Source: a virus
Taxonomy: Duplodnaviria > Heunggongvirae > Uroviricota > Caudoviricetes
Reading direction: 5' to 3' (one strand)
DNA: 64,000 nucleotides
IMG/VR virus record: IMGVR_UViG_3300028906_000002
The position numbers were made by a program, and so were the translations under genes. The notes beneath the pieces are model-generated. The model saw nothing but the letters and a program-made list of their open reading frames with translations, was not told the DNA's origin and ran no database searches. This document shows, piece after piece, positions 22,818-52,615 of the stretch (within the stretch, counting starts at the first letter, position 1; each line of letters opens with the position of its first letter).

Positions 22818-22919
22818 GGATGATTGCTGGACTGAAAATAATTGTGCCAAGGCTCTTGTAATCCGGTCAAAATCCTGCCAATAAGCGGACACCGTAATTA
22901 TGCAGCAGGAGATACTCCA

Positions 22920-23831
<912 letters not shown>

Positions 23832-27296: not shown

Positions 27297-27539
27297 ATGA
27301 TCTCGAACATCCCGTCGTTCGCGGTGCACCAGGACTACCAGGCGCGGCATAGCGATATGCTGGTGGCGGCTCGGGGAGAAGTGTTTCCGGATTGGTATGA
27401 GGGCCATCAGCGACCATCCGTAGTACGACCTGGCTGGTCTGTATGGCGTTCTTGTGCGCCAGCAGAGTTCTTCAACGAAACCAAAATAAGATGGATTGGC
27501 TGGGACCTTGCATCTCCTTGGGAAATATCGCAAGGATAG
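27297..27539 (+). CDS. hypothetical protein
   Basis: 80-aa ORF. Last gene before a strong terminator. Confidence 0.35.
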   Translation: MISNIPSFAVHQDYQARHSDMLVAARGEVFPDWYEGHQRPSVVRPGWSVWRSCAPAEFFNETKIRWIGWDLASPWEISQG

Positions 27540-27587
27540 CGCGCCTGGCGGTTCTCCGCTGAGCATTCCTCAGAACTCCCTAGACTT

Positions 27588-27625
27588 CGGCCGCTCGGTA
27601 ACACGGGCGGCCTTTTTATTATTTA
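27588..27625 (+). terminator. rho-independent terminator
   Basis: GGCCGCTCGG-taacac-GGGCGGCC stem followed by TTTTTATTATTT. Confidence 0.6.
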
Positions 27626-27642
27626 AAGTTTAAAAATAAAAG

Positions 27643-27671
27643 TTGACATCCTTAGATTGAGTGCTATTCTA
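27643..27671 (+). promoter_or_regulatory. sigma70-like promoter
   Basis: Perfect -35 TTGACA, 16-17 bp spacer, -10-like TATTCT. Sits in the only AT-rich intergenic spacer of the region. Confidence 0.4.
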
Positions 27672-28017
27672 CGGACATCATAGCAGAGTTGGGAATGCCC
27701 AAGACCCGGGTGAGACACGACCGGGGAGTGGCACAGAAAGAACTCCGGAAGGATTCAGTTCAGAGGGAGCCCCTCCAAGGCCAACTGGCCCGGCCCATGA
27801 AAACCTACTCGGCCTCTACCGAGAGACTGCATCGAGCAACGAAACGGATGCAGGTGGCGGTAACCTAAGTGAGACTTGCGATGCTCCCTCTGAACTGAAT
27901 CCTTCCGCTCTCTTTGTGGCCCAAACACAGACAAGCCCCGCCCCTCAAAAGGCCGGGTTTCTGCTGCTGTTGATTCGTTCTGCGATCTCGGCTAAAAACG
28001 CGAAACCCGCCGCAGGG
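27672..28017 (+). ncRNA. structured non-coding leader RNA upstream of HNH gene (intron-like or HEARO-like candidate)
   Basis: Perfect 24-nt inverted repeat GGAAGGATTCAGTTCAGAGGGAGC (27747-27770) / GCTCCCTCTGAACTGAATCCTTCC (27883-27906). Extra hairpins CCCGGG..CCGGGG and CTGCATC..GATGCAG. Motif GATGCAGG..GCGGTAAC resembles intron 3' tails at 51.5 and 52.6 kb. Confidence 0.3.
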
Positions 28018-28515
28018 ATGAATAAAATGGCAAAAGGCCGACCTGGGCGACAATGGCATCGAAAGAGAGTCGCGAACGGCCATTATGAAAATGGTGGTTT
28101 GGGCACCCTACTGCCAAGGCTTCGTGCCCTGGGTTTTAAGAAATATTCAGAATATCTTTCTTCGGCGCACTGGCAAAATTTGCGATCCGAATTGATGATT
28201 TTGCGCAGTGCACAATGTGAAATATGTTTGGCAACCGGAGTAAGGATTTCCCTCCATCACAGGACATATGAACGGCTCGGAAGTGAAAGACATGAGGATA
28301 TTATCCTTGTATGTCCCGAATGCCACGATCGAATCCACGCTAGCGAGCGGATGGGTGGGAAAGGAGGCTTAGAAGGTGCTCTGAAGCGCGTTCGTCGTCA
28401 TATTCTCAAAAAACAAGGTCGTATGGAAGAGCTTAGGATTGATCGAATAGCCTCGAAATTGGCCGCCAGAAGATCCAAAGACGAGTGCGTTGCCAAGGGG
28501 CGCGAAACCGCGTAG
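28018..28515 (+). CDS. HNH endonuclease
   Basis: CEICLATGVRISLHHRTYERLGSERHEDIILVCPECHDRIH is a canonical HNH zinc-finger nuclease motif. The rest of ORF 27661-28515 upstream of Met120 lies in the structured region and is not considered coding. Confidence 0.7.
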   Translation: MNKMAKGRPGRQWHRKRVANGHYENGGLGTLLPRLRALGFKKYSEYLSSAHWQNLRSELMILRSAQCEICLATGVRISLHHRTYERLGSERHEDIILVCPECHDRIHASERMGGKGGLEGALKRVRRHILKKQGRMEELRIDRIASKLAARRSKDECVAKGRETA

Positions 28516-28646
28516 GTTCCTCTTGATCTCGGCGAGCAAACAGCGCGCCAGAGTACGGAATGGGGGCGCTGCCTTAACCATCCGTCGCTTTATGCCGGTT
28601 GGGCCGGTGCCGAGATCGCGGGAATGATCGATCGGGGGTTTAGCCT

Positions 28647-28991
28647 ATGCGCAGAGTTTTGATGGCTTTGGCTGCGCTGCTGTGCAGCACGGCATTGGCG
28701 CACGCCAACTCATTCGATCAGACAGCATGCATCAATTCGCTCGGCTATCAGCAGATCACGAATCTATCGTCGGCGGTGGGATTTACGAGCGTTCCGAGTG
28801 GAACGAATTATGCCGTGATTACGGTAGAGACGGCCGGAATCAGATGGCGAGATGATGGAACGGCACCAACGGCGTCGGTAGGGATGCCAGTCAGTTCTGG
28901 CCAGTCTTTTTCATACACGACTAGTTTCAGCAAATTTCAGGCTATCCAACAGACATCTGGGGCTATCCTAGATGTTTATTTTTGCAGATAG
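28647..28991 (+). CDS. secreted hypothetical protein
   Basis: Signal peptide MRRVLMALAALLCSTALAHA. Confidence 0.45.
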   Translation: MRRVLMALAALLCSTALAHANSFDQTACINSLGYQQITNLSSAVGFTSVPSGTNYAVITVETAGIRWRDDGTAPTASVGMPVSSGQSFSYTTSFSKFQAIQQTSGAILDVYFCR

Positions 28992-29888
28992 GTGATGGCC
29001 ATGAAAACCCTCCTCGCAACCGTCCTCTCGTGGCTTGCGCTGTCGGGCGCTGTGATGGCGCAGGGACCGATAGTGCCGAATGGGGCAGCGTATCAGCCGA
29101 CGCAGCAATCGTTCTTTTGCACCACAAATGGTATTACGGTTACTTGCGGTGGTTCAGGTAATTTTACTTGCGTAGCTGGGTTTCCCGCGACCTGCACGGC
29201 CCCTCCATCAATAACGGGTCTCATTCAAGTTGATGGGTGCGCCGCCGGTGGTGGCAATGGCCTCGGTCAAGCCTCGGCGAGTACGGCTGGCGGTGGTGGT
29301 GGCGGTGCGGGTGAATGCATAGCGCCTCCTTACCCCATCTCAGTTGCTCCAGGTCAATCGCTCAGCATCACCGTTGGAGCCGGAATCGCTAATGCGAATG
29401 GTGGCAATACCGCGATGTCAGGTGCTTCAACTCCAATGAAAACTCTTGTGGGCGGTCTAGTAGGCGCGCCCGGAGTGACAGCTGTCGGCGGTACTGGAGG
29501 CAGCGGGCGAGGTCCCTCGACTTCAGGGTCAAATGCCGGCGGAACAGCCGGCAATCCAGGACTCCCGGCTGTTCTAAATACTCCATATGCATGTGCTGGT
29601 TCAGGTGGCGGCGGCGGTGCATCAACGGCGGGTGCCGCTGGCAGCGGTGGTTCCCCGGGCAATTCGGCTGGCGCTGGCCCGATGACCGGTGGCACTCAAG
29701 GTGGAACGGATGGCGGCGGCGGTGGCGGAGCTTCCTGCTTTGGCAATGGTGGGGCAGGCGGAGCTAACGGTGCTGCTGGAAGTACGCCAACCATAGGCTT
29801 TGGTGGGGGTGCTGGAGGGAATGGCAGCAATAGCGCGACGACCGTTCCCGGCGCGAATGGCTTCCTTCGGATTACCGGATATTGGTAA
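28992..29888 (+). CDS. secreted glycine-rich protein
   Basis: Signal peptide. About 40% Gly with GGxGG repeats and Cys-rich N-terminal segment. Compositionally paralogous to 45713-46666. Confidence 0.5.
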   Translation: MMAMKTLLATVLSWLALSGAVMAQGPIVPNGAAYQPTQQSFFCTTNGITVTCGGSGNFTCVAGFPATCTAPPSITGLIQVDGCAAGGGNGLGQASASTAGGGGGGAGECIAPPYPISVAPGQSLSITVGAGIANANGGNTAMSGASTPMKTLVGGLVGAPGVTAVGGTGGSGRGPSTSGSNAGGTAGNPGLPAVLNTPYACAGSGGGGGASTAGAAGSGGSPGNSAGAGPMTGGTQGGTDGGGGGGASCFGNGGAGGANGAAGSTPTIGFGGGAGGNGSNSATTVPGANGFLRITGYW

Positions 29889-31306
29889 TGCGGAAAATTG
29901 GAATCGCTCTCGTCCTGGCTCTTGCCGCCTCCAATGCATACGCGCAGAGTCCGCTGCGTCGATCTTCGCAGGTCTATGCCAATCTGTCCGCGACCGGCTA
30001 TACGATCCCATCTGGATTTGTAGGATTCAGTGCTGAAGCCGGTGATCTCATAGCCGGATTTTACCAAGGCGCGACTGGGGCCAATGGTTCATGGCTCGGT
30101 GTTGCAAATCTGCTTGGAAGCAATGGTGTATTGAGGATCGGAGGAAACTCATCCGATCAAGCGGCAACCGCCCCAGCGTTGACTGCTGGCATAGCGAGCG
30201 GCCTCGCAACCTTCGTGGCTGGCCTCGGGGCAGGATGGAAGCTGGTCTATGGACTAAATCTTCAGATCAACAACAGTGCGACAGCTGCGACACAAGCTGG
30301 ATTGATCGCAACAGCCATGGGCGGCGGAGCGAACGCTGTCTTTCAGTTTGGCAACGAAGCCATCGGCAATTATGTCACGAAGTCCCAATACGAAACCAAC
30401 TGGAACGCCTATTACACAGCAGTTTCTGGAACGGTGTCGGGGCTAAAGGTAGCAGCCACCGACACGGAAGATTTCGGAGACACTCAAGCTGTCATCGCGG
30501 CTCTCACGCCCGGTGCAGCGGGAATGACCTATGTCACCCAACACTGGTACGGCTCGCTGAACGGCGCGCCGTATACGGTCGCAAGTGCATCGCAGATGGT
30601 TTCGACCGTCGCGATAAATTATTATTTGAATTCAGGCACGGGAAACGCAGCACTCCCCTATTCAGGGTACGAGATAAATAACAACTGGGCCGCTGCCAAT
30701 GGCATTAAACTACGTCTCTCCGAGAGCAATAACATCAACAATCTCGGATTGTTGACCTACAGCGACCGAATGATGAGCGCGACGTGGTATATTAATGAGG
30801 CTATCGCGTTCTCGAACATGGGGTGGGACGGGATCAACACTCATGTTGCCTATGGCAATGGAGCGGGAAACGGCATAGGCAAATACAATCCAATCGTCAG
30901 CAAGGACGGCGGAACGACTTATCAGGCTGCGCCAGAGTTCTATGGTCAATATCTGTTCGCAAAGATTGAGGGACAACAGACGGTCGAAGTGTCGATAGGT
31001 GGCAACGCAAACCTCAACGCCATCGCGACGAAGGGCACTAACGGAAACGCAAATATCCTTGTTGTAAATAATGATCCGAATAATGTGGCTTACGTCTCAT
31101 TCGGGCAATCATTAGCATGGACAACGGCGAATGTTCTGCCGCTGTCGGGAACGAGTTGTTCAGATACTGCCCCAACGCTGGGGGGCTCGATCATCGGTCC
31201 AGGAGGTTCGTGGTCAGGATCGTCTACTGCCGTAAATAGCGTCGGAGGCATTGGCAGTACAGCCATTCTGCCCTGCGGCATAGTCCTGATCCAGATACAG
31301 CCATGA
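29882..31306 (+). CDS. secreted 474-aa protein, possible glycoside-hydrolase-like
   Basis: Signal peptide MVMRKIGIALVLALAASNAYA. Long N/G/S/T-rich globular body. No catalytic motif assigned. Confidence 0.5.
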   Translation: MVMRKIGIALVLALAASNAYAQSPLRRSSQVYANLSATGYTIPSGFVGFSAEAGDLIAGFYQGATGANGSWLGVANLLGSNGVLRIGGNSSDQAATAPALTAGIASGLATFVAGLGAGWKLVYGLNLQINNSATAATQAGLIATAMGGGANAVFQFGNEAIGNYVTKSQYETNWNAYYTAVSGTVSGLKVAATDTEDFGDTQAVIAALTPGAAGMTYVTQHWYGSLNGAPYTVASASQMVSTVAINYYLNSGTGNAALPYSGYEINNNWAAANGIKLRLSESNNINNLGLLTYSDRMMSATWYINEAIAFSNMGWDGINTHVAYGNGAGNGIGKYNPIVSKDGGTTYQAAPEFYGQYLFAKIEGQQTVEVSIGGNANLNAIATKGTNGNANILVVNNDPNNVAYVSFGQSLAWTTANVLPLSGTSCSDTAPTLGGSIIGPGGSWSGSSTAVNSVGGIGSTAILPCGIVLIQIQP

Positions 31307-31516
31307 TTGAAAGATAGCCTGATGCCAGTTCAATCCGCCAAACTCAAATCCTCATGGCTTACCGATGCGACCTATGACGACGCGACACAGACGCTAACGG
31401 TGACAACGGCGAGCGGGACGAAGCACGCGCACCAGGTTCCCCCGCACGTGTTTGCTGAACTGATGGCGGCGCCGAGTCCCGGTAAATTTTATAATGCTGT
31501 GCTGAGGCAGAAATGA
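31307..31516 (+). CDS. KTSC-domain protein
   Basis: PVQSAKLKSSWLTDATYDDATQTLTV...HQVPPHVFAELMAAPSPGKFYNAVLR matches the KTSC domain consensus. Confidence 0.65.
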   Translation: MKDSLMPVQSAKLKSSWLTDATYDDATQTLTVTTASGTKHAHQVPPHVFAELMAAPSPGKFYNAVLRQK

Positions 31517-35409: not shown

Positions 35410-35486
35410 ACCTCGGTAGCTCAGTGGGTAGAGCGTCCGTTTGTTTAACGGAAGGTCGATGGTTCGAGCCCATTCCCGAGGTGCCA
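35410..35486 (+). tRNA. tRNA-Asn (anticodon GTT)
   Basis: Manual cloverleaf: D-stem GCTC/GAGC, anticodon stem TCCGT/ACGGA with loop TTGTTTA, T-loop TTCGAGC, encoded CCA. One-nt irregularity at acceptor/T junction. Confidence 0.55.
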
Positions 35487-35571
35487 CGCTCTTGCTAATA
35501 CCGGCCCATTGATCTAGAAACCTCCCATGAACGCGAACCGCCATATTTCCCCCGATCGACCGCGCCCATCT

Positions 35572-35647
35572 CAGGGCGTGGGGAAAATGGTATCCCGCCG
35601 CATCTGGAGTGCGGAGATTGTCGGTTCGAGCCCGACCGCCCTGACCA
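35572..35647 (+). tRNA. tRNA-Pro (anticodon TGG)
   Basis: Acceptor CAGGGCG/CGCCCTG, D-stem GGGA/TCCC, anticodon stem CCGCA/TGCGG with loop TCTGGAG, T-arm GTCGG-TTCGAGC-CCGAC, encoded CCA. Confidence 0.6.
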
Positions 35648-35669
35648 TAACGACCACACGCTAGCTTTT

Positions 35670-35746
35670 GCTGGCGTAGCTCAGATGGGAGAGCATCCGT
35701 TTTGTACTCGGAAGGTCGGGAGTTCGAATCTACCCCGCCAGCCCCA
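35670..35746 (+). tRNA. tRNA-Thr-like (anticodon TGT)
   Basis: Perfect acceptor GCTGGCG/CGCCAGC and D-arm. Anticodon loop TTTGTAC. T-loop TTCGAAT. Encoded CCA. One extra nt in T-arm region. Confidence 0.5.
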
Positions 35747-36889: not shown

Positions 36890-38160
36890 GTTTGAGCCTT
36901 TCGGCGCGCTGGCCGAGCACCGAAGGGCAAGGAAAAAGGAAGGGCCGCTGCGTCAAACCTCGGGGGAGGAACGCAACGGCCCTGCAATCGGCTCTAGCTT
37001 CTCAGGGATCGTCTAATTGGCAGGACACCCGCCCCTACAAGTGTGGAGATGTCGGTCCGAACCCGGCTCCCTGAACCATCGAACTAGTGGGACCGACCGC
37101 GTTGGAGCGCTGCCGATCCCGAGTTACCAACCCCGGGATTGCGCCCCGAAGCGATAACCAGCCTGAATATACGCCTTGGAGGGCGTCTTTTCTAGGGTCG
37201 CTGACGGGCCATCCTTAACCAGAGGATTGCGCCCTCATGAACGTTCTTTCCCGCGAAAAGCAAATCGAAGTCATCGCCGCCCTCTGTGAAGGCGTCGGCA
37301 TCCGCACTGCCTCCCGCCTAACTGGCGTCAACCGTGGCACCGTTGGCAGCCTCGCCCTACGCGTCGGTCTTGGCTGCATGGAATTGCACGACCGAATCAT
37401 GGTCGGCGTTCGCACAGAGCGTCTAGAACTGGATGAGGCGTGGTCGTTCGTCGCGAAGAAGCAAAAGAACGTGCAGCGCCATGAAATCCACGCCAAGGGC
37501 AATCAGTACGTTTTCATCGCAATGGCCGGGACGCAAAAGGCCATCATCAGTTGGGGGGTCGGCAAGCGTAATGCCGAAAGCACCATGGATTTCCTGCACG
37601 ACTTGCGCGGGCGCGTCATCGGCCAACCCGAGATCAGCACGGACGGCTTTCACCCGTACCGCGTAGCGATCCGGGATGCCTTCGGCGATAGCGCATCGCA
37701 TGGCGTCATCGTAAAGACGTACAGCGTAACGCATCTGGTAAAGGAAGCGCAGGGCCGGTACTCGCCCGCCGCCGTAGTAGCTGTAAGCAAGGAAGTAGTA
37801 ACAGGCGATCCCGACCAATACATTTCGACCAGCTACGTCGAACGGCAGAACCTTTCGCTTCGCATGGGCAGCCGGCGCTTTACCCGGCTCACTAACGGCT
37901 TTTCAAAGAAGCTGGATAACCACGTTGCGGCGGTCGCGCTGTACGTCGCTCACTACAATCTCTGCCGGGTTCACGAAGCCCTGCGCACGACGCCAGCGAA
38001 GGCGCTGGGCATTGCCGATCGGACTTGGAGCATTGCGCAGCTTGTGGACGCGGCGCTTGCCGTTGCCCCTGCTACGCCCACCGAGACCCCGCCAGATCGA
38101 CGGCGAAAATTCACGGTAATTCAGGGGGGACGGGAGTGAACCAAGTCCCTCGGAGCGGGA
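36890..38160 (+). mobile_element. putative insertion sequence around the transposase gene (boundaries not resolved)
   Basis: Single transposase ORF flanked by about 350 bp and 20 bp non-coding. Terminal inverted repeats could not be identified by eye. Confidence 0.25.
37237..38139 (+). CDS. IS-type DDE transposase (IS1595/IS1-superfamily-like)
   Basis: N-terminal HTH. C-terminal FSKKLDNHVAAVALYVAHYNLCRVHEAL typical of IS1595-like transposases. Confidence 0.6.
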   Translation: MNVLSREKQIEVIAALCEGVGIRTASRLTGVNRGTVGSLALRVGLGCMELHDRIMVGVRTERLELDEAWSFVAKKQKNVQRHEIHAKGNQYVFIAMAGTQKAIISWGVGKRNAESTMDFLHDLRGRVIGQPEISTDGFHPYRVAIRDAFGDSASHGVIVKTYSVTHLVKEAQGRYSPAAVVAVSKEVVTGDPDQYISTSYVERQNLSLRMGSRRFTRLTNGFSKKLDNHVAAVALYVAHYNLCRVHEALRTTPAKALGIADRTWSIAQLVDAALAVAPATPTETPPDRRRKFTVIQGGRE

Positions 38161-50474: not shown

Positions 50475-50687
50475 ATGGCCTCTCCCGGCCTTTCCGAAAT
50501 TGTTACCACTACGCTGCGTAACCGCACTGGTTCGCTGCAGGATAATGTAAGCAGGAACAATGCCCTGCTTCATCGTCTCAACAAAAAGGGCAATATCAAA
50601 ACGTTTGACGGCGGTCGAACTATTGTCCAGGAGTTAGACTACAACAATAACTCCACCTTCGTCTGGTACTCCGGGTTAAGTGTTTGA
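50475..50687 (+). CDS. major capsid (coat) protein, exon 1 (gene interrupted)
   Basis: AGGGGAAA RBS. Capsid-like N-terminus MASPGLSEIVTTTLRNRTG...FVWYSG. Frame closes after 70 aa and resumes downstream. Confidence 0.5.
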   Translation: MASPGLSEIVTTTLRNRTGSLQDNVSRNNALLHRLNKKGNIKTFDGGRTIVQELDYNNNSTFVWYSGLSV

Positions 50688-51295
50688 GCCCCGGTTAATG
50701 CCTTAAGGGCGTAATAAAGAGGACGATCTACGTGTTTCATCTTCCATCGATTGCAGGGACCACAAAGCGTCTGGGCGTTTTCCCGGATATTAATGCCGCT
50801 GCACATCACTGGCAGGATGTGGTCAAGAACAAGTTCTTCGGTCGATTTGCACCATTTGCATTGTGGTTCGATCCATTCGGCTTTCTGTTCCTTCGTAAAG
50901 ATGAAGTGATGCCTCGGGGCGTTTTCTCTAAAATTATCCCAAGGTTTATTCTCTCCATTTCTACAGTATGCGATCATGTCAGCGCGATTGGTTCGCCAGC
51001 GCTCACGAAGGGCCGCCGACATTTTGGCGCGCGCTTCCTTAGTTTGCTTGAAGACACCTTTCTTCGGGCCTGTGCCTTTGGGCGGATTAAGTCTTCTGCC
51101 TTCGATAATACGTTGGCGAGATTCTGGAGAATGAGTTTTTCCGTAGAAAGGGTTATTTTTTCCTACGTTGTAGGCCGCTTTACAACCGACGTTGCAAAAC
51201 TTTTTTGTATCCGTCCGAATATTATGGATGGCTCGGTAAATAAGCGTTCCGCAATTCAGGCAAGGAAAACTCTCGCCAGTCTTTTTACGTCCCAT
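50639..51295 (-). CDS. HNH homing endonuclease with NUMOD3 motifs (in/adjacent to intron 1, opposite strand)
   Basis: C-terminal HNH motif CKWCKSTEELVLDHILPVMCSGINIRENAQTLCGPCNRWK. NUMOD3-like NPFYGKTHSPESRQRI and KQTKEARAKMSAALRERW. Confidence 0.7.
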   Translation of the reverse strand: MGRKKTGESFPCLNCGTLIYRAIHNIRTDTKKFCNVGCKAAYNVGKNNPFYGKTHSPESRQRIIEGRRLNPPKGTGPKKGVFKQTKEARAKMSAALRERWRTNRADMIAYCRNGENKPWDNFRENAPRHHFIFTKEQKAEWIEPQCKWCKSTEELVLDHILPVMCSGINIRENAQTLCGPCNRWKMKHVDRPLYYALKALTGAQTLNPEYQTKVELLL

Positions 51296-51539
51296 GGATT
51301 AACCTGCAAACTGGGTGAAAACGGTGAAAAACTTGTTACGGGGTAACTCGTACTAAGTCAATACCGTGCCAAGCTATCGATGTAAGGCGAAAGCCCGAGG
51401 GCGATAGAAGGTGTAACGACTAGATGCCGCGCGAAAGCAGTAATGCATCCACGAGTGCCCAGGCCGAAAGGCATGAGATAGTCTGGACTATGCCGTGAGG
51501 TATAGATGCAGGGGATAAAGAGCCTCTGCGGTAACATAG
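50688..51539 (+). mobile_element. group I intron 1 in coat gene (approximate boundaries)
   Basis: Core copy A at 51371-51536: helix CTATCG/CGATAG, GNRA hairpin GGC-GAAA-GCC, P7-like GACTA..TAGTC, tail GGGGATAAAGAGCCTCTGCGGTAACA-TAG. Confidence 0.5.
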
Positions 51540-51650
51540 TAGCGATCAAACGCTTAATATTTCGCCAAGCCAAACGTTCACGGCAGCGGAATTTCCAATA
51601 AGGCAGGCCGCGCTCGCGATTTCGATCTCGGGCTTGGAAGAAATTCAGAA
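51540..51650 (+). CDS. coat protein exon 2 (candidate, about 37 codons)
   Basis: Open frame ...SDQTLNISPSQTFTAAEFPIRQAALAISISGLEEIQNSG sits between the two intron cores, immediately after the conserved 3' tail of intron 1. Confidence 0.3.
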
Positions 51651-52615
51651 CAGTGGTTGGTAACTTGGCCACTTAATCGGGTGAAACGGGGGACGGTGAG
51701 AATCCCAATCCCGTAGGAAGCTATCAACGTAAGACGAAAGTCCCAGGGTGATAGAACCTCTAACGCATAGGCAGTGACGAAAGAATAATCTGCCCACGAG
51801 CGCCCGACAGGAAAGAAAGACGAAATGACTAAAGGCCACGCAAAAGACCTATCCGGAATGAGGTTCGGAAATATGGTCGTCGAGTATCGGAATGGTTCCG
51901 ATGCTAACTGCATGGCTCTTTGGATGTGCAAATGTGATTGTGGAAATTCAGCTTCAATTCGTGGCGCGTTTTTGCGTAAAGGTCAGATTTTCTGCTCTAA
52001 GCAGTGCAGCCTTTATACAAAGCCGATGCGGATTGATTTAACAGGCCAGAAATTCGGACGGTTGACCGCAGTGGAATATCTGAAGTCGACAAAATCCGGA
52101 AAGTCTGTGTGGCTCTTCTTGTGTGATTGTGGGGAGACGACGATTTGTCCCCATGACAATGTGACGAACGGACATACCATAAGCTGCGGGTGCCATGGCA
52201 TTCGTAGTCGTGTCCGGCACGGTCAAAGCAAGACGAGGGCGTATCAGAACGCCGCACATAGAAAATGGGTTGATGAAAACCCGGGTAAGTTTCTTGCGAA
52301 CGTCAAGAGACGGACTCCTGCCCTGAAGCTTAGAATTCCGCAATGGCTCACAGATGAGTATTGGTCGCAGATCGATGCCCATTACTCGGAAGCGAGGAGA
52401 CTGACGAAGGAAACCGGTATCATTCACCACGTTGACCACATCTATCCCCTTCGTGGGAAGACGTGCAGCGGATTGCATGTACCGTGGAATCTTCAAGTCA
52501 TCACTCGTACAGCGAACTTGCACAAGGCTAATCGTTTTCCTGAAGATGTATGCTGGACTAACGCGAATTAGATGAAGCGTTAGAAGTAGGGGATAAAAAG
52601 CCTCTACGGTAACAG
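51651..52615 (+). mobile_element. group I intron 2 in coat gene with embedded HNH ORF (approximate boundaries)
   Basis: Core copy B at 51717-51824 shows compensatory changes versus copy A (CTATCA/TGATAG, GAC-GAAA-GTC). P7-like CTAACG..CGTTAG straddles the HEG. Tail GGGGATAAAAAGCCTCTACGGTAACAG at 52588-52615. Confidence 0.5.
51825..52571 (+). CDS. HNH homing endonuclease (intron-encoded), two N-terminal Zn-ribbon modules
   Basis: HHVDHIYPLRGKTCSGLHVPWNLQVITRTANLHKAN HNH motif. Tandem G.RFG.L..VEY...W.C.CDCG..SCGC modules. Confidence 0.75.
   Translation: MTKGHAKDLSGMRFGNMVVEYRNGSDANCMALWMCKCDCGNSASIRGAFLRKGQIFCSKQCSLYTKPMRIDLTGQKFGRLTAVEYLKSTKSGKSVWLFLCDCGETTICPHDNVTNGHTISCGCHGIRSRVRHGQSKTRAYQNAAHRKWVDENPGKFLANVKRRTPALKLRIPQWLTDEYWSQIDAHYSEARRLTKETGIIHHVDHIYPLRGKTCSGLHVPWNLQVITRTANLHKANRFPEDVCWTNAN

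What the first reader, a model, noticed from the sequence alone, without database searches (positions are those of the whole stretch)
27588..28515. Insulated locus: terminator, consensus promoter, about 350 nt of heavily structured RNA, then an HNH endonuclease
A strong intrinsic terminator (27588-27625) is followed by a perfect -35 TTGACA promoter (27643-27671). Downstream lies about 350 nt with a perfect 24-nt long-range inverted repeat (27747-27770 with 27883-27906, 113 nt apart) plus several local hairpins. Only then does the HNH ORF start (Met at 28018). The leader contains GATGCAGG..GCGGTAAC, echoing the 3' tails of the two coat-gene introns. That similarity is weak. The inverted repeat could also be the terminal repeats of a tiny MITE-like insertion (160 bp). 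The element could be a degenerate or free-standing group I intron, a HEARO/omega-RNA-like HNH-associated RNA, or a regulatory leader. None of these has been described for this lineage.
Basis: partly seen in the sequence, partly recalled or inferred. Interest (0 to 1): 0.7.

Follow-up and report, generated by a model that had tools for sequence, protein, structure and literature searches.

The report
Phage hairpin RNA beside HNH gene
The sequence features are real, but they look like a one-off non-coding RNA with a very long hairpin sitting next to an ordinary mobile HNH nuclease gene in a fast-changing slot of an uncultured phage, not a ribozyme, guide RNA or mobile repeat.

Summary
All the described features are in the sequence. 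There is a terminator, a near-consensus promoter and a perfect 25-nt inverted repeat (27746-27770/27883-27907), which extends to a 35-bp hairpin. An HNH ORF follows; its real start is about 28018/28027.

The exotic readings fail.
- No Rfam family matches the leader: no group I intron, no HEARO/omega-RNA.
- The 162-aa protein is an ordinary small stand-alone phage HNH.
- No second copy of the repeat turned up in any collection searched.
- The 112 nt inside the repeat are not unusually structured.

Related phages decide the case. L003 has the same HNH (89% aa) behind an unrelated leader. L006 has the same promoter and the same downstream terminator hairpin, but a different 89-nt body and no HNH. 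Others fill the slot with unrelated genes.

So the locus is a hypervariable accessory slot. It holds a lineage-specific promoter-to-leaky-terminator non-coding unit and, next to it, a free-standing HNH homing-type cassette.

The hairpin is most likely an RNase III-type processing or stability element. That step is inferred, not shown.

The "strong terminator" is the 3' end of an alphaR8/MmgR-like small RNA that is conserved in four related phages. This is the most interesting by-product.

Interest is low to moderate.

The parts
27546..27627 (+). alphaR8/MmgR-like small RNA. Its Rho-independent terminator (stem 27589-27612 plus T-run) is the 'strong terminator' of the finding.
   Evidence: RF00519 scores 36.9 bits (gathering 41), E=1.2e-5, over the full model. 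The same element is in L006 (37.9 bits) and L007 (33.1 bits) and in L003 by alignment. Terminator scan.
27643..27670 (+). Sigma-70-type promoter TTGACA-16-TATTCT with a TG extended -10. Predicted transcription start is about 27677.
   Evidence: It is conserved in L006 as TTGACA-16-TATGGT. Window/L006 identity of 95.7% runs from 27127 and stops at 27667, inside the -10 hexamer.
27668..27931 (+). Lineage-specific body of the transcript (264 nt). L006 has an unrelated 89 nt here and L003 an unrelated stretch of about 190 nt.
   Evidence: Alignment scores are no better than shuffles. No homologue in any of the six reading frames.
27730..27770 (+). 5' arm of the long hairpin: outer imperfect 10 bp plus the perfect 25-nt core 27746-27770.
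27771..27882 (+). 112-nt apical region with three small hairpins. It is not more structured than shuffles.
   Evidence: z -0.72 on the + strand, -0.15 on the - strand.
27883..27921 (+). 3' arm of the long hairpin: perfect core 27883-27907 plus the outer imperfect part.
27932..27965 (+). Terminator-like hairpin with a U-rich tail. It is intact in L006 (CCCCGCC/GGCGGGG) and weakened here by one C-C mismatch at C27954. L003 has a diverged 12-bp hairpin at the same place.
27970..28109 (+). Block that is nearly invariant between the window and L003. It holds a possible weak promoter TTGATT(27970)-17-TAAAAA(27993), the 5' UTR, the Shine-Dalgarno AGGGA (28014-28018), the start codons 28018/28027 and the first 28 codons.
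   Evidence: 1 mismatch in 140 nt, against 46 in the following 406 nt. The promoter was read by eye; the scan did not flag it.
28027..28515 (+). Small stand-alone HNH endonuclease gene, 162 aa (165 aa from ATG 28018).
28487..28525 (+). Right boundary of the cassette: the last 9 codons of HNH, the stop, and 10 nt beyond. It is conserved in relatives that lack the HNH gene.
   Evidence: 92-97% identity to L006 4554-4592 and L007 5244-5280.

Best explanation
The locus sits in a hypervariable accessory slot of a family of roughly 86-kb uncultured phages, probably infecting Alphaproteobacteria. The slot begins just after a conserved alphaR8/MmgR-like small RNA. It holds two units that are neighbours, not partners.

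Unit 1 is a strong sigma-70 promoter (27643-27670) driving a non-coding transcript from about 27677 to a terminator-like hairpin at 27932-27965. Its body is specific to this phage and is dominated by a 35-bp hairpin with a 25-bp perfect core.

Unit 2 is an ordinary free-standing HNH homing-type endonuclease cassette (about 27970-28486) with its own 5' UTR and Shine-Dalgarno sequence.

Shown here:
- The anatomy.
- The promoter and terminator persist without HNH in L006.
- The HNH persists with a different leader in L003.

Inferred:
- The transcript is made.
- The 25-bp perfect duplex is cut by host RNase III. That would release the apical 112 nt and separate the 5' part from whatever reads through.
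- The terminator hairpin, weakened by the C-C mismatch at 27954, lets some transcription run into HNH. Otherwise HNH depends on a weak promoter of its own.
For: Promoter and downstream hairpin:
- The promoter and the 27932-27965 hairpin are shared with L006. There the unit is about 120 nt long and is followed by a convergent gene, not by HNH.
- L003 has a promoter-like site and a 12-bp terminator-like hairpin at the same relative places. Its body is unrelated, but its HNH is 89% identical.
- The three bodies are not alignable.

Slot variability:
- L007 and L010-L016 fill the slot with other genes.
- The 3' boundary 28487-28525 is kept in the HNH-less relatives L006 and L007.

The HNH protein:
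- It belongs to a family with 20,309 representatives, mostly 100-250 aa.
- The N-termini of homologues align with Met 28027.
- In 79 IMG/VR loci of the family the median upstream gap is 31 nt, so an upstream RNA is not a family trait.

The hairpin:
- It is a real feature and unique in the window.
- An uninterrupted duplex of 20 bp or more is the established substrate requirement of bacterial RNase III (textbook knowledge, not tested here).
Against: - There is no expression data.
- The terminator-like hairpin in the window is imperfect and was not flagged by the scan. The RNA may therefore simply be the HNH 5' leader.
- Perfect Watson-Crick pairing over 25 bp, with no G-U pairs, points to a recent or DNA-level origin rather than long selection on an RNA.
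- No second lineage carries the hairpin, so covariation cannot be tested.
- The two nearest outgroup HNH homologues whose contigs could be read also have 520-660 nt of ORF-free sequence upstream. This hints that the adjacency may not be pure coincidence.
- The HNH reading frame stays open through the leader (p about 0.03).
Confidence: 0.5

Rival explanations
1. The RNA is the cis-acting 5' leader of the HNH gene. The long hairpin and the downstream attenuator hairpin limit or time HNH expression. This would resemble the free-standing and intron-borne homing endonuclease genes of T4-type phages, which are controlled by upstream terminators, dedicated promoters and RNA hairpins.
For: - No other strong promoter lies between 27670 and the HNH start.
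- Both HNH-bearing phages (window and L003) have promoter, long leader, terminator-like hairpin and then HNH.
- Multilayer control of homing endonuclease genes by terminators and hairpins is documented for mobE, segB, I-TevI-III and seg43(25) (PMC2988022, read).
- The near-invariant 27970-28109 block across the start codon suggests a constraint on the mRNA.
Against: - The hairpin lies 100 nt upstream of the Shine-Dalgarno sequence and does not sequester it.
- L003 expresses the same protein without this hairpin.
- L006 keeps the promoter and terminator with no HNH downstream.
Confidence: 0.25
2. The inverted repeat is a DNA-level feature with no RNA role. It could be a foldback or MITE-like insertion, a product of template switching (quasipalindrome correction), or the two recombination sites of a 112-bp invertible segment that, when flipped, would present a weak terminator to the promoter.
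For: - The 25 bp pair perfectly with no G-U pairs.
- CTC flanks both arms.
- A terminator-like hairpin lies on the minus strand inside the segment, at 27823..27808.
- The inner 112 nt are not structured.
- The segment lies inside a stretch that was swapped wholesale between relatives.
Against: - No second copy was found anywhere searched.
- Complementarity continues 10 bp beyond the perfect core into the flanks, which transposon ends do not do.
- The flanks do not join up into the L006 or L003 sequence, so this is not a simple insertion.
- No recombinase, integrase or convincing transposase is present among 61 ORFs of 120 aa or more.
- Both available assemblies have the same orientation.
Confidence: 0.13
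3. The stretch is protein-coding. Either the whole 284-aa frame 27661-28515 is one protein with a disordered N-terminal extension, or the 57-aa basic ORF 27695-27868 is a small gene.
For: - Gene callers called the 284-aa ORF in two assemblies.
- The frame is open for 85 codons (p about 0.03) and has a coding-like codon score.
Against: - The only start codon (GTG 27661) lies inside the promoter spacer, upstream of the predicted transcription start. There is no in-frame start until 27916.
- L003 has in-frame stops just upstream of its ORF.
- Homologues begin at the position of Met 28027.
- No protein in 5.8 billion clusters resembles any frame of the leader apart from the identical copy.
- The codon test is weak: the true HNH gene scores worse than the leader.
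Confidence: 0.04
4. The RNA is a functional partner of the HNH protein: a degenerate or free-standing group I ribozyme, or a HEARO/omega-RNA-like guide or scaffold.
For: - A structured RNA is adjacent to an HNH gene.
- The HNH domain is of the IscB/Cas type by weak profile matches.
- A block straddling the start codon is nearly invariant.
- Two outgroup homologues have long ORF-free upstream regions.
Against: - No Rfam hit at E<=10 in the leader, while the group I model finds an intron at 51211-51505 in the same window.
- The protein has no RuvC domain or other domains and is only 162 aa.
- The leader is not conserved with the protein in L003.
- The upstream regions of the window, L017 and L098 share no sequence.
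- The wider family sits tightly packed against upstream genes.
- The locus is not inside a host gene, so there are no exons.
Confidence: 0.03

Closest known systems
Free-standing HNH homing endonuclease genes of T4-type phages (mobE, and the seg genes as the GIY-YIG analogues)
   Same: A small stand-alone nuclease gene in an intergenic slot. It is present in some related phages and absent in others at the same place. It is flanked by terminators and has its own or a borrowed promoter and an RNA hairpin upstream (PMC2988022).
   Different: Here the hairpin is 35 bp, lies 100 nt upstream of the ribosome-binding site and does not sequester it. Homing activity and the target site are unknown. The host lineage is alphaproteobacterial, not T4-like.
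RNase III processing hairpins in phage transcripts (T7 early and late mRNA sites, lambda sib and N-leader); from my own knowledge
   Same: A long double-stranded stem within a phage transcript, between functional units, with no U-tract after it.
   Different: The known sites carry internal loops and non-canonical pairs and are conserved among relatives. This one is perfectly paired over 25 bp, encloses 112 nt and is unique to one lineage. Cleavage has not been tested.
HEARO RNA / IscB omega-RNA (Rfam HEARO; NCBIfam NF040563)
   Same: A structured RNA upstream of, and on the same strand as, an HNH-domain gene. The HNH domain shows weak similarity to that of IscB.
   Different: No covariance-model match. 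The protein lacks the RuvC, bridge-helix and PLMP parts. The RNA is not conserved with the protein.
Group I introns carrying HNH ORFs (RF00028)
   Same: The phage does carry at least one such intron in its structural region. Two octamers are shared with that intron's tail.
   Different: No ribozyme core is detectable in the leader. The locus is flanked by a terminator and a promoter rather than exons. The HNH is unrelated to the intron-borne one.
alphaR8 / MmgR / SisA-D small RNAs of Alphaproteobacteria (RF00519)
   Same: For 27546-27627 only: a weak 5' hairpin, a single-stranded CUCCCU anti-Shine-Dalgarno stretch and a Rho-independent terminator. The covariance-model match spans the full model length.
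   Different: The score is below the gathering threshold. The family 10-mer UUUCCUCCCU (PMC12559287) is interrupted (AUUCCUC-AGAA-CUCCCU). It is encoded by a phage, directly after an 80-aa ORF.

Membership tests
Group I intron (RF00028) | Conserved catalytic core (P3-P8) recognisable by the covariance model | tested here: not met
   No Intron_gpI match in 27400-28700 at E<=10. The same model finds 51211-51505 at 35.5 bits, E=2.9e-6, which serves as an internal positive control.
Group I intron (RF00028) | Inserted in a host gene, with exons that join on splicing | tested here: not met
   The stretch is preceded by an intrinsic terminator and a promoter, and followed by the HNH gene's own Shine-Dalgarno sequence and start. 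No split ORF is present.
HEARO / IscB omega-RNA system | RNA matches the HEARO/omega-RNA covariance model | tested here: not met
   No such hit among 4227 Rfam families at E<=10.
HEARO / IscB omega-RNA system | Protein of about 400-500 aa with a split RuvC domain plus an HNH domain | tested here: not met
   The protein is 162-165 aa. NF040563 scores 26.3 bits against a cut-off of 175 and covers only profile positions 183-255, the HNH domain.
HEARO / IscB omega-RNA system | RNA scaffold co-conserved with the protein | tested here: not met
   L003 has an HNH 89% identical in protein sequence, but its leader is unrelated upstream of 27916-27970.
MITE / foldback element | Multiple copies in the same or related genomes | tested here: not met
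   Only the two arms themselves are found in the window. There are 0 hits in IMG/VR and in 185,579 species genomes for the 20-mer. The gapped 12+12 pattern gave one chance hit in a coding region and none in viral contigs. Plasmids gave none. The JGI metagenome collection was not scanned for the repeat itself.
MITE / foldback element | Terminal inverted repeats that end at the element boundary, flanked by a direct target-site duplication | tested here: inconclusive
   CTC lies on both sides, but inverted complementarity continues for 10 more base pairs into the flanks. Removing the element does not restore the L006 or L003 sequence.
Free-standing HNH homing endonuclease | HNH catalytic motif with CxxC...CxxC zinc ligands in a small stand-alone ORF | tested here: met
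   Pfam HNH 21.4 bits, at its cut-off; PHROG HNH families down to 1e-7. C64, C67, H77, H78, C96 and H100 are invariant in the family alignment, and C99 is nearly invariant (90% or more of sequences).
Free-standing HNH homing endonuclease | Presence/absence polymorphism at one locus among related genomes | tested here: met
   Present in the window and in L003/L004. Absent in L006 and L007, which keep the flanking boundaries.
Free-standing HNH homing endonuclease | Site-specific cleavage of the endonuclease-less allele, with co-conversion of flanks | not testable with these tools
   Needs the enzyme and co-infection experiments. The 140-nt near-identical tract with L003 is compatible with this but not diagnostic.
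alphaR8 / MmgR sRNA (RF00519), for 27546-27627 | Covariance-model score at or above the gathering threshold | tested here: not met
   36.9 bits against 41. L006 scores 37.9 and L007 33.1.
alphaR8 / MmgR sRNA (RF00519), for 27546-27627 | Single-stranded 10-mer UUUCCUCCCU between a weak hairpin and a Rho-independent terminator (PMC12559287) | tested here: inconclusive
   The weak hairpin and the terminator are present and invariant in 4 phages. The 10-mer is split by a 6-nt insertion in the model alignment, leaving CUCCCU intact.
Retron non-coding RNA | Adjacent reverse transcriptase gene | tested here: not met
   No RVT family among 61 ORFs of 120 aa or more in the window. The adjacent gene is the HNH.
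Invertible DNA switch | A recombinase nearby, and both orientations present in the population | tested here: inconclusive
   No serine or tyrosine recombinase family was found in the window ORFs. Both assemblies (L001, L002) have one orientation.
RNase III substrate | Uninterrupted RNA duplex of about two helical turns (20 bp or more) | tested here: met
   A 25-bp perfect duplex within a 35-bp stem on the strand downstream of the promoter. Cleavage itself is not testable here.

The most novel reading that the evidence does not exclude
The small HNH proteins of this subfamily work with an RNA encoded just upstream. On this reading, the near-invariant block across the start codon (27970-28109) is a scaffold or control element, and the rapidly swapped upstream body supplies specificity or regulation. 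That would explain why the window, L017 and L098 all have hundreds of ORF-free bases before the gene. It would be a minimal RNA-associated HNH nuclease outside the IscB/Cas9 lineage.
Probability: 0.03. Interest if true: 0.8.

Novelty: new member of a known kind. Interest (0 to 1): 0.3.

Why it matters
If the best explanation holds, this is one more example of how phages pack promoter-driven non-coding RNAs and selfish nuclease genes into a recombination-prone slot. It is useful for annotation: the 284-aa ORF called by gene finders is an artefact, and the true gene is 162-165 aa. It does not change concepts.

Two by-products deserve more attention than the original claim.
- A group of uncultured phages carries a conserved look-alike of the alphaR8/MmgR family, host small RNAs that control carbon metabolism. 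It could be a case of phage manipulation of a host RNA regulon.
- The promoter and terminator are kept while the RNA body between them is swapped. This pattern would be worth a systematic search.

Tried and rejected
- **Group I intron remnant.** No covariance-model hit in the leader, although the model works elsewhere in the window. No alignment to the intron regions. The HNH is unrelated to the intron-borne nucleases.
- **HEARO/omega-RNA.** No hit, and only a domain-level match to IscB.
- **MITE.** Exact and gapped searches in viral and genome collections, plasmid BLAST, and a six-frame protein search all came back empty.
- **Simple insertion into a shared leader.** The flanks do not align with L006 or L003 better than shuffles.
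- **Retron or invertible switch.** No reverse transcriptase or recombinase among the window ORFs. The marginal IS1-like hit at 37237-38139 has no terminal repeats.
- **Long-range stem enclosing the HNH ORF** (27982-27992 with 28609-28619). An 11-mer pairing at this distance is expected by chance about 0.2 times, and the partner sequence is absent from L003.
- **Analogous hairpins in relatives.** None in the same slot.
- **Sponge for alphaR8.** Only 6 nt of complementarity, by eye.
- **Searches that gave nothing.** Phage GenBank BLAST of the locus and of 20 kb around it. Both metagenome-contig scans. IMG/VR scans with the HNH gene, with the upstream gene and with the conserved 5'-UTR block upstream of the HNH start.
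- **Calibration attempts.** A first background z-score script timed out. The shorter version showed that z-scores from few shuffles are noisy. I therefore do not lean on the z-scores of L017 and L098.
Full report
**1. What is in the sequence**

The region reads as the first stage described it, with small corrections.
- A 9-bp, GC-rich stem at 27589-27612 is followed by TTTTTATTAT.
- After an AT-rich tract comes TTGACA-16-TATTCT at 27643-27670, with a TG extended -10. It matches 10 of 12 consensus positions.
- The inverted repeat is 25 nt, not 24: 27746-27770 against 27883-27907. It is perfectly complementary with 112 nt between the arms.
- No comparable match occurs in shuffles, and nothing similar exists elsewhere in the 64 kb.
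- Folding shows the pairing continues imperfectly for ten more base pairs, giving a stem of about 35 bp (27730-27770 with 27883-27921).
- The predicted transcript is far more stable than shuffles (z -4.9 and -7.5). A rough scan of 49 background windows also puts it at the extreme.
- That excess is the long stem. The 112 nt inside it are ordinary (z -0.7 and -0.15 on the two strands).

**2. The gene**

The ORF contains an HNH domain. Pfam HNH scores 21.4 bits, at its cut-off, and several PHROG HNH families match.
- An exhaustive search places it in a very large family of small stand-alone proteins, with 20,309 representatives at E<=1e-3.
- An alignment of 17 members shows their N-termini coincide with Met 28027, and shows the zinc ligands and catalytic histidines conserved (invariant, or nearly so for C99).
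- AGGGA at 28014-28018 lies 8 nt before ATG 28027.
- The 284-aa frame that gene callers recorded starts at a GTG inside the promoter spacer. It has no other in-frame start before 27916. Its N-terminal part has no homologue, and the closest relative has stops at that position.
- I treat the 284-aa ORF as an annotation artefact. I do note that the frame is open for 85 codons (p about 0.03).

**3. Tests of the proposed identities**

Rfam, run permissively (E<=10) over 27400-28700, gives no group I intron, no HEARO and no other relevant family.
- The same group I model detects an intron at 51211-51505 in this window, so the negative result is meaningful.
- The shared GATGCAGG and GCGGTAAC octamers occur together in only one intron tail, with different spacing. 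No alignment supports homology.
- The HNH is unrelated to the two intron-region ORFs.
- NCBIfam's IscB model matches only the HNH domain, at 26 bits against a cut-off of 175.
- The repeat has no other copy in the window, in IMG/VR, in one genome each of 185,579 species, or in plasmids. The one gapped-pattern hit is a chance match inside a coding region.
- No reverse transcriptase, recombinase or RNase III is encoded by the 61 larger ORFs of the window.

**4. Relatives decide the matter**

The window is a metagenomic phage contig (ENA ERZ27256640), with an identical stretch in a Logan assembly.
- It encodes a terminase and a portal. The portal is at most 34% identical to those of Bradyrhizobium and Brucella phages.
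- Nineteen relatives were found through the conserved 57-aa gene upstream, and several contigs were read.

Three comparisons matter.
- *L003/L004.* The HNH is 89% identical in protein, and the alphaR8-like RNA is conserved. Everything between the terminator and about 27916-27970 is replaced by unrelated sequence. That sequence has its own promoter-like site and a 12-bp terminator-like hairpin, and no long inverted repeat.
- *L006.* It is 95.7% identical from 27127 up to 27667, that is, through the promoter into the -10 hexamer. It then has 89 unrelated nucleotides, followed by the 27932-27965 hairpin at 97% identity and with an intact stem. Next comes a convergent 203-aa gene in place of HNH.
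- *L006 and L007.* Both lack HNH yet keep the 37-39 nt that form the 3' end of the HNH ORF.

The three bodies cannot be aligned better than shuffles, and deleting the repeat does not recreate either relative's sequence. More distant relatives fill the slot with other genes and have no comparable hairpin.

**5. Interpretation**

The promoter and the downstream hairpin form a unit that exists without HNH. HNH exists without this RNA body.
- The simplest reading is therefore two adjacent cassettes in a hypervariable slot.
- The first is a promoter-to-(leaky)-terminator non-coding unit whose body has been swapped.
- The second is a free-standing homing-type HNH gene bounded at about 27970 and 28487.
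- In the window the terminator stem carries a C-C mismatch at 27954. Read-through into HNH is therefore plausible.
- A weak TTGATT-17-TAAAAA promoter at 27970-27998 is a second possible source of HNH mRNA. This was read by eye; the scan did not flag it.
- A 25-bp perfect duplex in a transcript is an RNase III substrate by the enzyme's known requirements. I therefore commit to processing or stability control as the most likely role of the hairpin. That step is inference.

The absence of any G-U pair or bulge over 25 bp, next to an imperfect outer stem, suggests a recent DNA-level origin such as template switching. This is why a purely DNA-level explanation keeps a non-trivial share of the probability.

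**6. What remains odd**

- Between the window and L003 there is 1 difference in 140 nt across the HNH 5' UTR and first 28 codons, against 46 in the next 406 nt. This could be a recent conversion tract, an RNA element over the start codon, or an antisense transcript. Minus-strand promoter-like and terminator-like sites lie at 28176..28149 and 28014..27999.
- The two nearest outgroup homologues that could be placed on contigs have 520 and about 660 ORF-free nucleotides upstream.
- However, those regions share no sequence with the window leader.
- Their z-scores fall within the noisy background range.
- In 79 viral loci of the wider family the median upstream gap is 31 nt.
- These points keep a small probability alive for an RNA-HNH partnership.

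**7. By-product**

The 'strong terminator' is the 3' end of an alphaR8/MmgR-like small RNA at 27546-27627.
- It scores 36.9 bits, just under the gathering score of 41, over the full model length.
- It is invariant in structure in four related phages.
- It keeps the weak hairpin, a CUCCCU anti-Shine-Dalgarno stretch and the terminator that define the family (PMC12559287). The family 10-mer is interrupted.
- Full-text searches for MmgR or alphaR8 together with 'phage' returned eight and three papers. From their titles and the passages I read, none describes a phage-borne copy.

**8. Verdict**

The features are real. The exotic interpretations are not supported. The locus is a new instance of known kinds of element: a free-standing HNH gene and a lineage-specific phage non-coding RNA with a long hairpin. 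Interest 0.3.

Noticed in passing
window 27546-27627 (+); L003 9722-9800; L006 3423-3504; L007 3772-3853: A phage-encoded look-alike of the alphaproteobacterial alphaR8/MmgR small RNA family. It scores just below the Rfam gathering score and sits directly after the stop codon of an 80-aa ORF. It is conserved in four related phages. The family's 10-mer seed is interrupted but CUCCCU is kept.
   Followed up: partly
window 27970-28109: Only 1 difference from L003 in 140 nt across the HNH 5' UTR and first 28 codons, against 11% divergence afterwards. The deficit at synonymous sites has p about 0.01.
   Followed up: partly
window 28487-28525; L006 4554-4592; L007 5244-5280: The last 9 codons and the stop of the HNH ORF are conserved in relatives that have no HNH gene. 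This may be a module boundary, possibly a recombination or homing junction.
   Followed up: partly
window 28176..28149 and 28014..27999 (minus strand): A promoter-like site inside the HNH gene and a terminator-like hairpin just upstream of its start. Together they could give an antisense RNA of about 150 nt over the HNH ribosome-binding site. The predicted fold is not unusual (z -0.7).
   Followed up: no
window 50639-51830: A group I intron hit below the gathering score (51211-51505, 35.5 bits), with a NUMOD3 + HNH_5 ORF on the opposite strand (50639-51295). A second intron-like stretch at about 51650-51810 precedes ORF 51825-52571.
   Followed up: partly
L017 1-540 and L098 840-1500: The two nearest outgroup homologues of the HNH (53% and 50% identity) are each preceded by 520-660 nt without ORFs. 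These regions fold somewhat better than shuffles but share no sequence with each other or with the window leader.
   Followed up: partly
window 23385-23725: A 341-nt (GCC)n tract inside ORF 22842-23831. Its length appears to differ from the ENA contig copy (L001).
   Followed up: no
window 37237-38139 (+): A 300-aa ORF with a marginal IS1 DDE transposase match (24.3 bits against a cut-off of 24.1). No flanking terminal repeats and no PHROG match.
   Followed up: partly
window 28527-31318: Three genes after the HNH are absent from L003, which resumes homology at 31319: a 114-aa signal-peptide protein, a 298-aa glycine-rich protein and a 474-aa protein. This is a second variable cassette directly downstream.
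   Followed up: no
window 35410-35746: A cluster of three tRNA genes (Asn-GTT, Pro-TGG, Thr-TGT).
   Followed up: no
window 27661-27915: The HNH reading frame stays open for 85 codons through the non-coding leader (p about 0.03) and has a coding-like codon score. This explains why gene callers report a 284-aa protein.
   Followed up: partly
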